This document shows, piece by piece, positions 14,195 through 16,917 of a DNA stretch of 43,250 nucleotides. Each line of letters starts with the position of its first letter. The stretch's first letter is position 1. The position numbers and the translations under genes were made by a program. The notes below the pieces were generated by a model that saw only the letters and a list, made by a program, of their open reading frames with translations, searched no databases and was not told the origin of the DNA. The stretch comes from Candidatus Saccharimonadales bacterium (lineage in GTDB: Bacteria; Patescibacteriota; Saccharimonadia; Saccharimonadales; 2-12-FULL-41-12), in contig JAYRJB010000014.1 of the NCBI GenBank assembly GCA_041906505.1, positions 1 through 43,250 on the forward strand. The letters run 5' to 3'.

Positions 14195-14686
14195 ATGAAA
14201 AAGGCATTGTTTGGGGCCGGCTGTTTTTGGGGAGTGCAATATTATTTTGATCAAGTGCCCGGGGTTTTGCGGTCTCGCGCAGGCTACAGCGGTGGCCACA
14301 CAGATCAGCCATCCTACGAAGAAGTTTGCGCTCATTCAACCGGTCATGCCGAAGTAGTGGAGCTTTCGTTTGACGAAAAAGTAGTTAGCTTTCGAACGTT
14401 GGTACGGCATTTTTTTAGAATGCACGACCCGACACAACTGAACGGGCAGGGTCTTGATATTGGAGATAATTATCGATCAATACTGTTTTATTACGACGAT
14501 GAACAGCGGAAAATTGCCTTGGCTGAGAAACAAACTGCATCGAAACAGTTTGTCAAACCAATCGTCACAGAAATCGTGCCCCACAAGGAGTTCTTCGTAG
14601 GGGAGGCTTACCATCAAAAGTTTGCTGAGCGTACAGGAAGAGGTATGTGCCATGTGGCGTACTCGCCGCTTCCTATGGATAACTAA
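14195..14686 (+). CDS. msrA: Peptide-methionine (S)-S-oxide reductase
   Basis: GAGCFWG, GYSGG, YEEVC, GHAEVV, HDPTQLNGQG, AEAYHQ-like GEAYHQ. Confidence 0.96.
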   Translation: MKKALFGAGCFWGVQYYFDQVPGVLRSRAGYSGGHTDQPSYEEVCAHSTGHAEVVELSFDEKVVSFRTLVRHFFRMHDPTQLNGQGLDIGDNYRSILFYYDDEQRKIALAEKQTASKQFVKPIVTEIVPHKEFFVGEAYHQKFAERTGRGMCHVAYSPLPMDN

Positions 14687-14778
14687 GCCCGCCCGGTTGT
14701 TTTGTGGCTGCTTTTGGTGAGTATGCTATAGTGTTGGTAATTGATTAGATAGTTCATGCTGGGGAGGCAAAAAACGCT

Positions 14779-15657
14779 ATGGCAAAGGCTAAAAAGGCTG
14801 CAGGTAAAAAAGCGACAAAACAAAGCGAAGCAAAGAAGGTTACGACTGTTCCGTCAGCTGACGCAGTTAAGCAAACGACAAAAAGGAAGCAGCTTACGCC
14901 ACTGGAGAGAATAAAGGCGCTAAACAGTTTTTCGGCGATTGTGTACCTAGTGTTGGCGGTAGTAGTCGTGGTGGTGATGGCCTCTGTTTCAGCAAAAATT
15001 GGTCTAAGTATCAAAGCACCAGACATGCTTGCAAATTCGGGCGTTGATCCTCTTGTGCCGGCTTCTGAGACGCTCTTTGATGTGCAATTGCGTTATTTTC
15101 TGGCCGCGATTCTAGTAGTCGCTGCCGTGGGTTCGGCGCTGTTGTCTACAAGACTTCGCAAAGTTTATGAGGATGGCGTGAATAAGTCTGCCAGCGCGGT
15201 AAGATGGGTGATTCTAGGGCTTAGCGCAGGTCTTATGCTTGAGTTTGTCAGTCTTATTGCTGGCATTAATGACGTGATGACCCTAAAGCTCATAGGAGGC
15301 TTGATAGTAATAACCGCATTGCTGGGCTGGATATCCGATAAAGACAATAGCTCAAAAGGTGGCAAATGGTTGGCATTTGTGTGCGCATTAATTGCCGGTA
15401 CATTGGCATGGCTGCCGTTACTCGGGTCACTTGTTGGCACCGGTGTATATGGTGACGCAAGATTTGGTTGGCACGTCTATGCGCTTTCTGGGGTAGTATT
15501 GCTTAGTTCGATGTTGATTGCGCGTACGCAGTACTTGGGTATACGTCAGACGGCGACGGCGACCACATATGTTTCGAGAGAAGAAAAGTACCTCAAGATT
15601 GATCTTGTGACAAAAATTGCGGTGGTTTTGATTGTTTTGACAGCACTTTCATCCTAA
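14779..15657 (+). CDS. Divergent heliorhodopsin-like 7TM protein
   Basis: By-eye alignment to heliorhodopsin 48C12 as I recall it: LNSFSAIVYL~FNRIAGVFHL, YEDGVNKSASAVRWV~YSASLMKNQNIFRWV, AGINDV~CGIADI, LLGWISD~LFGWLQE, IAGTLAW~IAGIVPW, HVY~FVY, EEKYLKIDLVTK~GERAYIVLSLVAK. Seven hydrophobic segments. Confidence 0.8.
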   Translation: MAKAKKAAGKKATKQSEAKKVTTVPSADAVKQTTKRKQLTPLERIKALNSFSAIVYLVLAVVVVVVMASVSAKIGLSIKAPDMLANSGVDPLVPASETLFDVQLRYFLAAILVVAAVGSALLSTRLRKVYEDGVNKSASAVRWVILGLSAGLMLEFVSLIAGINDVMTLKLIGGLIVITALLGWISDKDNSSKGGKWLAFVCALIAGTLAWLPLLGSLVGTGVYGDARFGWHVYALSGVVLLSSMLIARTQYLGIRQTATATTYVSREEKYLKIDLVTKIAVVLIVLTALSS

Positions 15658-15663
15658 GCGTAC

Positions 15664-16917
15664 ATGCGACGGGTTTCTCAGATTGCTACTATCGACAAGA
15701 TGGTACACGGTGGCTTTGCGTTAGGAACATTGGAAAATGGCAAAAAAGCCTTTGTTTGGGGCGCCTTACCTGGAGAGCGCGTCATGTTTGTGGTGACAAA
15801 AAAACATTCTGGCTACGTCGAAGGCGTGACGGAAAAGGTGCTAAAACCGTCAGATCTTCGAGTCGCTCCCAAAGACGATGGATATCTCAGCACAAGCCCC
15901 TGGCAAATAATGCGCTATTCACAAGAAAATGAATACAAAAAAAGTATTCTGCAAGAAACGTTCCGCCGGGAAGGTGTCGATATTCCCCAAATATCCTTTC
16001 ATGCGCCCAGGCGTGAGTGGGGGTATCGCAACAAGATGGAGTACTCGTTTTACGGAGACGACGAGGGATTGCACTTGGCACTATATGGTCGAGGGAGTCA
16101 TAACAAACGGATTGTCTCTGGCTCAAGTATTGCCAGAAGGGAAATTGACCTGGTTGCCAGACAAGTTTGTGAGCTGCTGAATGCACAAAGAGTTCGAGCG
16201 AGCTCACTCAAGACGATAATGCTTCGTTGTGCTGCAAACGGCGAAGTGGCGTGTGTGTTATTCGTCAAAGACAAAGAGTTTATAAAACTTCCAGACTTAA
16301 AAAATCTGTGTAAGGGTAGTGCCGTTTGTTATTCTGACCCCAAAAGTCCTGCGAGTGTTCGAACGAAGGACTTATATATGTACGGAGATATATCGTTAAC
16401 TGATTCTATACGAGGCACCAAAATAAGCTACGATGTTTTTTCATTCTTCCAAGTTAATCTCGATATTTTTGAGCAAGTAATATCGCGCATTGATAGGGAA
16501 GTGTCTGGAAAGGGTGTAATTGATCTTTACGGCGGTGTAGGTACTATTGGTTTATCAGTTTCTGGGAATGTAAAGAAAATAATAGACAGTGATTCTGCGA
16601 ATATTCGCTGGGCAAGATTAAATGCAAAGGGAAGTGTGTCGGTAGTTTCCGCAAAAGCTGAGGACGCGATAGAGCATATTAACAATGTTGATATTGTCAC
16701 TGTTGATCCACCTCGGGCTGGCTTGCATCGAAAAATTATTGAGAAGTTTGCAAAAGAGAAACCGCCAAAAATCGTATACCTTAGCTGCAACCCGTCAACT
16801 CAAGCCAGAGATATTAAATTGCTTGAGCGGTCCCATAAACTAGAAAGTCTAGAAGGATATAACTTTTTCCCAAAAACTCCACACATAGAATCCCTTGCCA
16901 TTCTCACCAGAGTATAG
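15664..16917 (+). CDS. TRAM-domain RNA m5U methyltransferase (RlmD/TrmA family)
   Basis: GALPGE, YRNKME, FFQVN, DLYGGVG, VDPPRAG, YLSCNPST, FFPKTPHIE. The Fe-S cysteines are replaced by YLSTSPWQ. Confidence 0.9.
   Translation: MRRVSQIATIDKMVHGGFALGTLENGKKAFVWGALPGERVMFVVTKKHSGYVEGVTEKVLKPSDLRVAPKDDGYLSTSPWQIMRYSQENEYKKSILQETFRREGVDIPQISFHAPRREWGYRNKMEYSFYGDDEGLHLALYGRGSHNKRIVSGSSIARREIDLVARQVCELLNAQRVRASSLKTIMLRCAANGEVACVLFVKDKEFIKLPDLKNLCKGSAVCYSDPKSPASVRTKDLYMYGDISLTDSIRGTKISYDVFSFFQVNLDIFEQVISRIDREVSGKGVIDLYGGVGTIGLSVSGNVKKIIDSDSANIRWARLNAKGSVSVVSAKAEDAIEHINNVDIVTVDPPRAGLHRKIIEKFAKEKPPKIVYLSCNPSTQARDIKLLERSHKLESLEGYNFFPKTPHIESLAILTRV

What the first reader, a model, noticed from the sequence alone, without database searches (positions are those of the whole stretch)
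14779..15657. Heliorhodopsin-like protein with a type-1-style DxxxK motif and no helix-C counterion
Seen: a 7TM protein aligning by eye along its whole length to heliorhodopsins. The Schiff-base Lys is kept (K279, 15613-15615), but the HeR SxxxK motif is DLVTK (D275, 15601-15603), the DxxxK form of type-1 rhodopsins. The HeR counterion segment RWVEYS is RWVILG (E107 to I145), and the two conserved His are replaced (H23 to Y56, H80 to S119). A new Glu (E155) appears later in helix C. A roughly 45-aa Lys-rich N-terminal extension fits N-in topology. It has its own extended -10 (14724-14732) and SD, and follows msrA. No retinal synthesis genes are in the window. Inference: either a photoreceptor whose counterion moved to helix G (a different photochemistry) or a retinal-free HeR derivative repurposed as a sensor or scaffold. 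Rhodopsins have been reported in Saccharibacteria, and I cannot tell whether this variant is already described.
Basis: partly seen in the sequence, partly recalled or inferred. Interest (0 to 1): 0.82.

Follow-up and report, generated by a model that had tools for sequence, protein, structure and literature searches.

The report
Rewired heliorhodopsin in Saccharibacteria
This gene from a tiny symbiotic bacterium encodes a heliorhodopsin-family (light-sensor) membrane protein in which the acidic partner of the pigment-binding lysine has moved to another helix and the pigment pocket is no longer conserved, so it may not be an ordinary light sensor.

Summary
ORF 14779-15657 (292 aa) matches Pfam Heliorhodopsin (E 8e-30) and models as a HeR fold. 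It keeps the Schiff-base Lys (K279) but has D275 for Ser237, I145 for Glu107, and Y56/S119 for the two His.

It is not a one-off. It sits in the ancestral msrA-HeR-rlmD slot of Saccharimonadales. It belongs to a monophyletic clade (100/100) present in 29 of 30 genomes of its family. It is under strong purifying selection (dN/dS 0.09).

New here: the genome also has a canonical HeR at another locus. Retinal-pocket sites evolve three times slower than other membrane sites in canonical Saccharimonadia HeRs, but no slower in this clade (1.02 vs 1.07), as in Lys-less relatives. The window protein lacks all three polyene-flanking aromatics. Two clade members lost Asp and Lys together and remain under equal selection (dN/dS 0.07).

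So D275-K279 is a conserved, coupled buried ion pair. The clade's core function seems independent of the canonical chromophore pocket. Retinal binding with a schizorhodopsin-like helix-G counterion remains possible (about 40%). I found no paper describing this variant: a new variant of a known kind. Expression with retinal would decide.

The parts
14779..15657 (+). CDS of the divergent heliorhodopsin-family protein (292 aa plus stop)
   Evidence: ORF list and translation. Pfam PF18761 at 104 bits. AF2 model pLDDT 78; Foldseek top hits are 48C12 and TaHeR. dN/dS 0.087 for the core against the same-genus orthologue.
14779..14913 (+). Residues 1-45: polybasic, disordered N-terminal (cytoplasmic) tail
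   Evidence: 13 K/R, net charge about +10, pI 10.6. pLDDT under 50 for residues 1-33. dN/dS 0.23. Present across the divergent lineage. The canonical copy of the same genome starts directly at the HeR core.
15202..15213 (+). R142-W143-V144-I145: helix-C motif RWVI in place of RWVE (counterion Glu107 replaced by Ile)
   Evidence: Gap-free alignment to 48C12. Position 107 is L/I/A/F/V/M/S and never acidic in 28 of 28 clade members. Its site rate is 1.56, i.e. fast.
15601..15615 (+). D275-L-V-T-K279: helix-G DxxxK. Asp at the BR-D212 / HeR-S237 position (GRN 7.46); Lys at the Schiff-base position (7.50)
   Evidence: GAT at 15601-15603 and AAA at 15613-15615. D in 27 of 28 and K in 28 of 28 of the clade. 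Both are among the slowest sites, rate 0.34. Both are lost together in L094 and L095.
14944..14946 (+). Y56 at the position of His23
   Evidence: Alignment table.
15133..15135 (+). S119 at the position of His80
   Evidence: Alignment table.
15241..15243 (+). E155, a new polar or acidic residue in the extracellular half of helix C (48C12 position 117)
   Evidence: In the clade: E16, T5, Q3, and one each of S, N, V. In canonical HeRs: V/I/L.
15460..15483 (+). R228-A235 (RFGWHVYA): clade-specific, near-invariant extracellular EF-loop / helix-F motif
   Evidence: Invariant and nearly invariant columns. Among the slowest sites.
14724..14732 (+). TGCTATAGT, an extended -10-like sequence in the 92-bp msrA-HeR spacer
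   Evidence: Read directly. Not supported by the promoter scanner, which needs a -35. No RNA data.
14761..14767 (+). GGGGAGG Shine-Dalgarno-like, 11 nt before the ATG
   Evidence: Read directly.
14195..14686 (+). msrA (peptide methionine sulfoxide reductase), conserved upstream neighbour
   Evidence: PF01625 in relatives. msrA lies upstream on the same strand in many loci that hold canonical, Asp107, DxxxK or Lys-less forms.
15664..16917 (+). TRAM / tRNA-U5-methyltransferase-like (rlmD-like) gene, conserved downstream neighbour, starting 6 nt after the HeR stop

Best explanation
The gene is the orthologue, in its Saccharimonadales family, of the heliorhodopsin that sits in the ancient msrA-HeR-rlmD slot. 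In this lineage the Schiff-base region has been rebuilt. The helix-C Glu and both His are gone, and an Asp one turn below the Lys on helix G (D275, K279) now supplies the negative charge.

Shown:
- The fold, N-in topology and cytoplasmic polar cluster of HeRs are kept (R142, W143, Y130, D187, Y264, E268).
- D275 and K279 are a conserved, evolutionarily coupled buried ion pair.
- The residues that wall the retinal in canonical HeRs are no longer under special constraint.
- Clade members that lost Asp and Lys together are still strongly selected.

Inferred: the function that selection maintains does not need the canonical chromophore pocket. Most likely it is a HeR-derived membrane scaffold or regulator. 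It would act through its conserved cytoplasmic face and polybasic tail, and perhaps through its newly conserved extracellular loops. The D275-K279 pair would serve as an internal salt bridge that is hard to lose one residue at a time. Retinal scavenged from the host might still bind in some members, but it is not what keeps the gene.
For: Family membership and fold.

Clade and distribution:
- The clade is monophyletic at 100/100 and nested in a divergent lineage that arises among canonical Saccharimonadia HeRs.
- The same msrA / rlmD-like slot holds canonical, Asp107, DxxxK and Lys-less forms.
- It is present in 29 of 30 family genomes, 25 of 25 high-quality genomes and 8 of 8 genera. Only 5 of the 30 also have a canonical copy.

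Selection: dN/dS is 0.087 for the core, against 0.077 for msrA.

Pocket constraint:
- Entropy, pocket vs other TM sites: canonical 0.23 vs 1.26 (p 8e-9); this clade 1.39 vs 1.57 (p 0.14).
- On a larger set the pocket/other ratios are 0.36 canonical, 1.03 DxxxK-type, 1.07 acid107+K, 1.07 Lys-less.
- Tree-based site rates: canonical 0.32 vs 1.08 (p 8e-7); clade 1.02 vs 1.07 (p 0.42). Y108 and F209 are among the fastest sites and D275/K279 among the slowest.
- The window protein has L146, S244, I247 at GRN 3.46, 6.50, 6.53 (Y108, F206, F209). These positions are reported as well conserved in all characterised rhodopsin clusters (PMC13739731).

Charge coupling among non-canonical sequences: an acid at 107 or 237 occurs in 143 of 154 with Lys, 12 of 14 with Arg, and 6 of 34 with a neutral residue at 241.

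Double loss: L094 and L095 have lost both residues (N+L, N+V). They keep the clade motifs and pocket residues, and their dN/dS is 0.066.

Habitat: activated sludge and digesters.
Against: - K279 is invariant in 28 of 28 and D275 in 27 of 28 of the first sample. Lys is lost in 8 of 21 sequences of the neighbouring divergent lineages (Fisher p 4.5e-4, not corrected for phylogeny).
- The Asp sits exactly where Ser237 hydrogen-bonds the Schiff base in 48C12 (PMC7049168).
- Schizorhodopsins show that a hydrophobic residue at 3.45 plus a single Asp at 7.46 gives a working pigment (PMC7148096).
- W143 (W105), A248 (A210) and Q251 (Q213) are kept, and the pocket is not filled by bulky residues.
- The genome keeps a canonical HeR, which implies that retinal reaches the cell.
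- No experiment has been done. Loss of pocket constraint is an indirect argument, and the pocket list was derived from BR/48C12 equivalences in the literature, not from coordinates.
Confidence: 0.5

Rival explanations
1. It is a working retinal photoreceptor with a relocated counterion. K279 forms a protonated Schiff base with scavenged all-trans retinal. D275 (GRN 7.46) is the sole counterion, as in schizorhodopsins. Light-driven changes are passed to a cytoplasmic partner (for example MsrA or another neighbour) through the conserved cytoplasmic cluster and the polybasic tail. The canonical second copy would sense light in a different way.
For: - K in 28 of 28 and D in 27 of 28, both at the slowest site rates.
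- Ser237 contacts the Schiff base in 48C12 and equals BR D212.
- Schizorhodopsin precedent: F at 3.45 plus D184 at 7.46, and D184N gives no pigment.
- Asp and Lys are lost together, as expected for a functional pair.
- HeRs and Saccharibacteria type-1 rhodopsins take up external retinal quickly (PMC9296517).
- HeRs are known to regulate partner enzymes by binding (PMC9529153, listed).
- The msrA adjacency is conserved.
Against: - There is no pocket-specific constraint, indistinguishable from Lys-less relatives.
- All three polyene-flanking aromatics are replaced in the window protein.
- The helix-E Pro172 is lost in 28 of 28.
- Arg241 variants keep the acid, so the ion pair persists without a Schiff base.
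- Lys-less clade members are under equal selection.
- The habitats are dark or turbid.
- msrA adjacency is part of a long syntenic housekeeping block, so it need not mean a functional link.
Confidence: 0.38
2. It is a transporter or channel built on the HeR fold. The former retinal pocket has become a polar conduit and D275/K279 is the ion or proton binding site. The mechanism is either light-driven (see the novel case) or light-independent.
For: - Pocket positions hold on average 6.8 polar residues, against 3.8 in canonical and 3.4 in Lys-less proteins.
- These include Thr at 141 and 240 in 22 of 28 each and Q213 in 21 of 28.
- Position 117 is polar or acidic in 26 of 28.
- A viral HeR is a proton transporter (PMC9448325, listed).
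Against:
- E155 is only half conserved.
- Natural N/L variants persist under selection, which a transport site would hardly allow.
Confidence: 0.07
3. It is a decaying or functionless remnant of a heliorhodopsin gene.
For: Many canonical HeR residues are lost.
Against: - The ORF is intact in 29 of 30 family genomes.
- dN/dS is 0.087.
- New invariant motifs have arisen.
Confidence: 0.02

Closest known systems
Canonical heliorhodopsins (48C12, PDB 6su3/6uh3; TaHeR, 6is6; Pfam PF18761)
   Same: - Best sequence and fold matches.
- 7 TM helices and N-in topology.
- Lys in helix G.
- R104, W105, Y92, E149, Y226, E230 equivalents are kept.
- Same chromosomal slot as canonical HeRs of related genomes.
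   Different: - E107 to Ile, S237 to Asp, H23 to Tyr, H80 to Ser, N101 to Ser, Y108 to Leu, F206 to Ser, P172 to Ala, Q26 to Leu.
- The retinal pocket is not constrained.
- A 45-aa polybasic tail is present.
- It falls below the NCBIfam HeR equivalog cut-off.
- The AB loop is not modelled as a beta-hairpin, at low confidence.
Schizorhodopsins (inward proton pumps; F-S-E motif, Asp184 at BR-212)
   Same: A hydrophobic residue at the helix-C counterion position (3.45) and a single Asp at 7.46 next to the Schiff-base Lys.
   Different: - No family relationship closer than the rhodopsin superfamily.
- Opposite membrane topology.
- No Glu at 3.56: it is Phe156, with Glu at 3.55 in about half of the clade.
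- The aromatic pocket residues W154, W161 and P158 of SzR are not matched here.
Lys-less and counterion-variant HeR homologues of Saccharimonadia (uncharacterised); Lys-less rhodopsin homologues in general (Rh-noK)
   Same: - Same divergent lineage and same locus.
- Same lack of pocket constraint.
- Two members of the very same clade are Lys-less.
   Different: The window protein keeps both Lys and a neighbouring Asp, so retinal binding is not excluded.
HeRs that regulate partner enzymes by direct binding (AbHeR with glutamine synthetase, PMC9529153)
   Same: A non-transporting HeR encoded next to a soluble enzyme gene (here msrA). The cytoplasmic face is conserved.
   Different: No interaction has been tested. 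The adjacency lies within a long syntenic block. The chromophore site is rebuilt.

Membership tests
Heliorhodopsin (Pfam PF18761) | Profile match above the curated gathering score over the whole domain | tested here: met
   104.4 bits against 26.7, profile positions 2-237 of 242.
Heliorhodopsin HeR equivalog (NCBIfam NF038020) | Score at or above the equivalog cut-off of 100 bits | tested here: not met
   96.6 bits. The canonical copy of the same genome scores 328 bits on PF18761.
Heliorhodopsin | Seven-helix rhodopsin fold closest to solved HeR structures | tested here: met
   AF2 pLDDT 78, pTM 0.74. Foldseek ranks 1-10 are all 48C12 or TaHeR, with target-normalised TM-score 0.70-0.78 and E 6e-7 to 3e-5. 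Type-1 rhodopsins follow at E 5e-3 or worse.
Heliorhodopsin | Inverted topology (N-terminus cytoplasmic) | tested here: met
   Positive-inside count: 19 K/R on the N-terminal-side loops against 3 on the other side. Computational only.
Heliorhodopsin | Schiff-base Lys in helix G (K241 of 48C12) | tested here: met
   K279 aligns with it.
Heliorhodopsin | Glu counterion in helix C (E107; RWxEY) | tested here: not met
   I145. Never acidic in 28 of 28 clade members.
Heliorhodopsin | SxxxK motif in helix G (Ser237) | tested here: not met
   DLVTK. Asp in 27 of 28.
Heliorhodopsin | His23 and His80 lining the Schiff-base cavity | tested here: not met
   Y56 and S119.
Heliorhodopsin | Conserved retinal pocket (Y108, M115, M141, W173, F203, F206, F209, P172) | tested here: not met
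   The window has L146, M153, T179, W211, L241, S244, I247, A210. Pocket site rates equal those of other TM sites.
Heliorhodopsin | Binds all-trans retinal and has a slow photocycle without ion pumping | not testable with these tools
   Needs expression and spectroscopy.
Schizorhodopsin | Hydrophobic residue at 3.45 with Asp at 7.46 as the only counterion | tested here: met
   I145 and D275. Feature definition from PMC7148096 and PMC13739731.
Schizorhodopsin | Glu at 3.56 (F-S-E motif), type-1 (N-out) topology, sequence membership | tested here: not met
   F156 at 3.56 (position 118), N-in topology, and the sequence and fold matches go to HeR.

The most novel reading that the evidence does not exclude
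The protein is a light-driven proton transporter of a new kind. It would be a rhodopsin of inverted (heliorhodopsin) topology that uses the schizorhodopsin solution: a hydrophobic residue at 3.45 and a single helix-G Asp.

Schizorhodopsins move protons from the side of the helix-C counterion position (BR Asp85) to the opposite, BR-Asp96 side of the retinal. The same structural direction in an inverted protein would carry protons outward. That would give an energy-conserving pump to a bacterium of the reduced, host-dependent kind, run on retinal taken from its host. The polar residues that have appeared in the formerly hydrophobic extracellular half (E155, T179, S244, Q251, T278) would form the exit path.
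Probability: 0.05. Interest if true: 0.9.

Novelty: new variant of a known kind. Interest (0 to 1): 0.6.

Why it matters
What heliorhodopsins do is still largely an open question.

This lineage offers a natural experiment at one chromosomal locus, on one scaffold. Related genomes carry the canonical form, forms with the counterion changed or moved, and forms without the lysine at all. All are under purifying selection.

If the DxxxK form binds retinal, it is a heliorhodopsin with type-1 or schizorhodopsin-style counterion chemistry, of interest for photochemistry and tool design.

If it does not, then together with its Lys-less clade-mates it shows that the heliorhodopsin fold has a light-independent job. 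That job is important enough to be a core gene in a family of bacteria with genomes of 0.7-1 Mb.

Published surveys required SxxxK to call a HeR (PMC8612252; PMC9166423 checked the same motif). This clade has therefore probably been filtered out of earlier counts.

Tried and rejected
- RNA evidence: two metatranscriptome runs from a sample that holds the genome gave no contig on the locus. This is uninformative.
- Promoter scan: no sigma-70 site. The extended -10 can only be read by eye.
- blh (PF15461) search of the genome: negative, but the control genomes were silent too, so it is inconclusive.
- Supplementary tables of the freshwater CPR survey: searched for DLVTK-type motifs with no occurrences. 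The SLVAK motif named in that paper's own text was not found either, so the motif table is probably not among the held files.
- Pocket side-chain volume as a discriminator: Lys-less proteins do not fill the pocket either (2988 against 2933 A3). The measure says nothing.
- D275-K279 distance and cavity shape in the model: coordinates are not exposed by the tool, so not measured.
- Paralogue born in this genome: rejected. The window gene is the syntenic orthologue. The canonical copy is the one at a foreign locus, and it groups with HeRs of other orders.
- Pseudogene: rejected.

Full report
**1.

The window has an ORF at 14779-15657 (+) of 292 aa.

- It matches Pfam Heliorhodopsin at E 7.8e-30 over almost the whole profile.
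- It falls just below NCBI's HeR equivalog cut-off, 96.6 against 100 bits.
- Its best matches among solved structures are 48C12 and TaHeR.
- An AlphaFold2 model built on 23 relatives has pLDDT 78 and seven helices. Foldseek ranks ten heliorhodopsin chains first (target-normalised TM-score 0.70-0.78), ahead of all type-1 rhodopsins.
- K+R counts are 19 on the N-terminal-side loops and 3 on the other side, which fits the inverted N-in topology.

The gap-free alignments give these equivalences:

| 48C12 | Window protein |
|---|---|
| R104, W105 | R142, W143 |
| E107 | I145 |
| S237 | D275 |
| K241 | K279 |
| H23 | Y56 |
| H80 | S119 |

**2. It is a clade, not an oddity**

- A word-indexed search found 22 relatives at 38-89% identity.
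- A full HMMER pass over 1.84 billion cluster representatives found 1238 family members at E up to 1e-3. About 27 of the best 150 (50%-identity clusters) have an acid at 237, no acid at 107, and Lys.
- In a maximum-likelihood tree of 93 sequences rooted on 48C12, the DxxxK sequences form one clade of 28 rows with 100/100 support.
- That clade lies inside a 49-row divergent lineage (94/98) that branches among canonical Saccharimonadia HeRs.
- Its neighbours are forms with Asp107 plus Ser/Asn/Gly237, and several forms that have lost the Lys to R, Q, A, T, L or S.
- All named relatives are Candidatus Saccharibacteria, Saccharimonadales or Saccharimonadia MAGs.
- Runs holding the window sequence come from activated sludge, sludge and anaerobic digesters.

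**3. Genomic setting**

- The gene lies between msrA and an rlmD-like methyltransferase, within a housekeeping block (GreA, aminoacyl-tRNA synthetases, RsmE, SerS, HPF, SecA). The block is conserved in an 89% and a 46% relative.
- Across 70 loci of the class, the same msrA / rlmD-like slot holds canonical HHESK heliorhodopsins, Asp107 forms, DxxxK forms and Lys-less forms.
- The window gene is therefore the diverged orthologue at the ancestral locus.
- The window's genome (720 kb, 98.7% complete) also has a fully canonical HeR of 254 aa on another contig, with H23, Q26, S76, H80, E107, S237 and K241.
- That second copy is not next to msrA. In the tree it groups with HeRs of other orders, so it is probably a secondary acquisition.
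- In the GTDB-type family of the window genome, 29 of 30 genomes carry the divergent gene (25 of 25 high-quality genomes, 8 of 8 genera). Only 5 of the 30 also have a canonical copy.
- No type-1 rhodopsin, phytoene synthase or carotenoid oxygenase was found in the genome. The blh test had no working control.

**4. Selection**

- Against the same-genus orthologue, the 7-TM core has dN/dS 0.087 and the tail 0.23. msrA next door has 0.077.
- The gene is clearly functional.

**5. What is and is not conserved**

Conserved in the clade:

- The cytoplasmic polar cluster: R142 (R/K), W143, Y130, E131, S139, D/E187, Y264, E268.
- The D275-K279 pair.
- New extracellular motifs: TLK at 168-170 and RFGWHVYA at 228-235.
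- A shifted helix-E proline: P172 becomes Ala in 28 of 28, with a new Pro three residues on.

The retinal pocket is not conserved. I defined pocket positions from the BR/48C12 equivalences given in PMC7049168.

| Measure (pocket vs other TM sites) | Canonical Saccharimonadia HeRs | DxxxK clade |
|---|---|---|
| Mean entropy | 0.23 vs 1.26 (p 8e-9) | 1.39 vs 1.57 (p 0.14) |
| Tree-based site rate (IQ-TREE) | 0.32 vs 1.08 (p 8e-7) | 1.02 vs 1.07 (p 0.42) |

- On a larger set the pocket/other entropy ratios are 0.36 (canonical), 1.03 (DxxxK type), 1.07 (acid107 plus Lys) and 1.07 (Lys-less).
- By this measure the Lys-keeping divergent proteins look like the Lys-less ones.
- The window protein has Leu, Ser and Ile at GRN 3.46, 6.50 and 6.53 (Y108, F206, F209). 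A 2026 survey reports these positions as well conserved in every characterised rhodopsin cluster (PMC13739731).
- The clade's pocket is also smaller in side-chain volume. It has half as many aromatics and more polar residues, 6.8 against 3.8.

**6. The Asp-Lys pair is a coupled ion pair**

- Among non-canonical sequences, an acid at 107 or 237 accompanies Lys241 in 143 of 154 cases. It accompanies Arg241 in 12 of 14 and a neutral residue in 6 of 34 (Fisher 8e-19, not corrected for phylogeny).
- Arg cannot form a Schiff base. The acid/base pair therefore persists without retinal, and its conservation alone does not prove a chromophore.
- Inside the very clade of the window gene, two species of one genus have lost both residues (D to N with K to L or V). 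A third species has D plus R.
- The two double-loss proteins keep the clade's motifs and the same pocket residues as their Lys-bearing congeners. Their dN/dS is 0.066.
- So the function that selection preserves in this clade does not require the pair.

**7. Weighing the readings**

For a real pigment:

- The Lys and Asp are very well conserved in most of the clade.
- The Asp occupies the position of Ser237, which hydrogen-bonds the Schiff base in 48C12 and equals BR D212.
- Schizorhodopsins show that Phe at 3.45 with a single Asp at 7.46 works, and their D184N mutant forms no pigment.
- The genome's canonical HeR implies that retinal reaches the cell. Saccharibacteria rhodopsins are known to load external retinal.

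Against a real pigment:

- The pocket data.
- The missing aromatics.
- The Arg variants.
- The selected Lys-less clade-mates.
- The dark habitats.

I put the retinal-independent reading at about 0.5, the relocated-counterion photoreceptor at about 0.4, and the remainder on a transport function. The first two readings are not fully exclusive. Retinal could be an optional modulator of a protein whose main job does not need it.

**8. Novelty**

- Kovalev et al. 2020 describe S237, E107, H23 and H80 as highly conserved in all HeRs.
- Bulzu et al. 2021 kept only SxxxK sequences as HeRs.
- Chiriac et al. 2022 checked the same motif and reported SLVAK, SLIAK and SFVAK as the most common in CPR.
- The 2026 numbering paper states that HeRs have Ser at 7.46 and describes new HeR-like clusters that still have H, H, E, S.
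- Searches for heliorhodopsin with DxxxK, Patescibacteria, Saccharibacteria or lysine-less turned up no description of this clade.
- Within the open literature I could search, it is undescribed. Subscription papers were not searchable.
- Earlier AI notes of this scan reached the same reading on sister genomes. They are not independent evidence.

**Verdict**

The feature is real and is a new variant of a known kind. It is of moderate to high interest, mainly as part of a natural series that could show what heliorhodopsins do without light.

Noticed in passing
Own genome, contig C1:38211-38939 (-), outside the window (locus L001 1492-2256): A second, fully canonical heliorhodopsin (254 aa; H23, Q26, S76, H80, E107, S237, K241; 328 bits on PF18761). 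It is not next to msrA. In the tree it groups with HeRs of other orders of the class, so it is probably a secondary acquisition.
   Followed up: partly
window 15664-16917; compare L003-L006 and L010: The rlmD-like (TRAM / tRNA-U5 methyltransferase) gene just downstream of the HeR gene is present here and in distant relatives. In the same-genus relative (89% identical HeR) only a 27-aa remnant matches. This is a presence/absence difference between congeners.
   Followed up: no
L094 (G403) and L095 (G405), same family, genus g3: Two members of the DxxxK clade have lost Asp and Lys together (INFASLL and INFATVL). They remain intact, are 84% identical to each other, and have dN/dS 0.066.
   Followed up: yes
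P0023 (metagenomic protein, sister to the DxxxK clade): A charge-rearranged variant with Lys at position 107, Glu at 237, Glu at 80, and the helix-G Lys.
   Followed up: no
L025, L030, L033, L088 and 10 cluster representatives: Variants with Arg in place of the Schiff-base Lys keep the neighbouring acid in 12 of 14 cases. This suggests a buried salt bridge maintained without any chromophore.
   Followed up: partly
window 15406-15417 (residues 210-213) and 15460-15483 (residues 228-235): The helix-E proline of HeRs (P172) is Ala in all 28 clade members, and a new invariant Pro appears three residues later. An extracellular motif RFGWHVYA is nearly invariant in the clade but absent from canonical HeRs.
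   Followed up: no
L020 (G265), P0085, P0107: Rare forms carry acids at both 107 and 237 together with Lys. They are possible intermediates in the move of the counterion from helix C to helix G.
   Followed up: no
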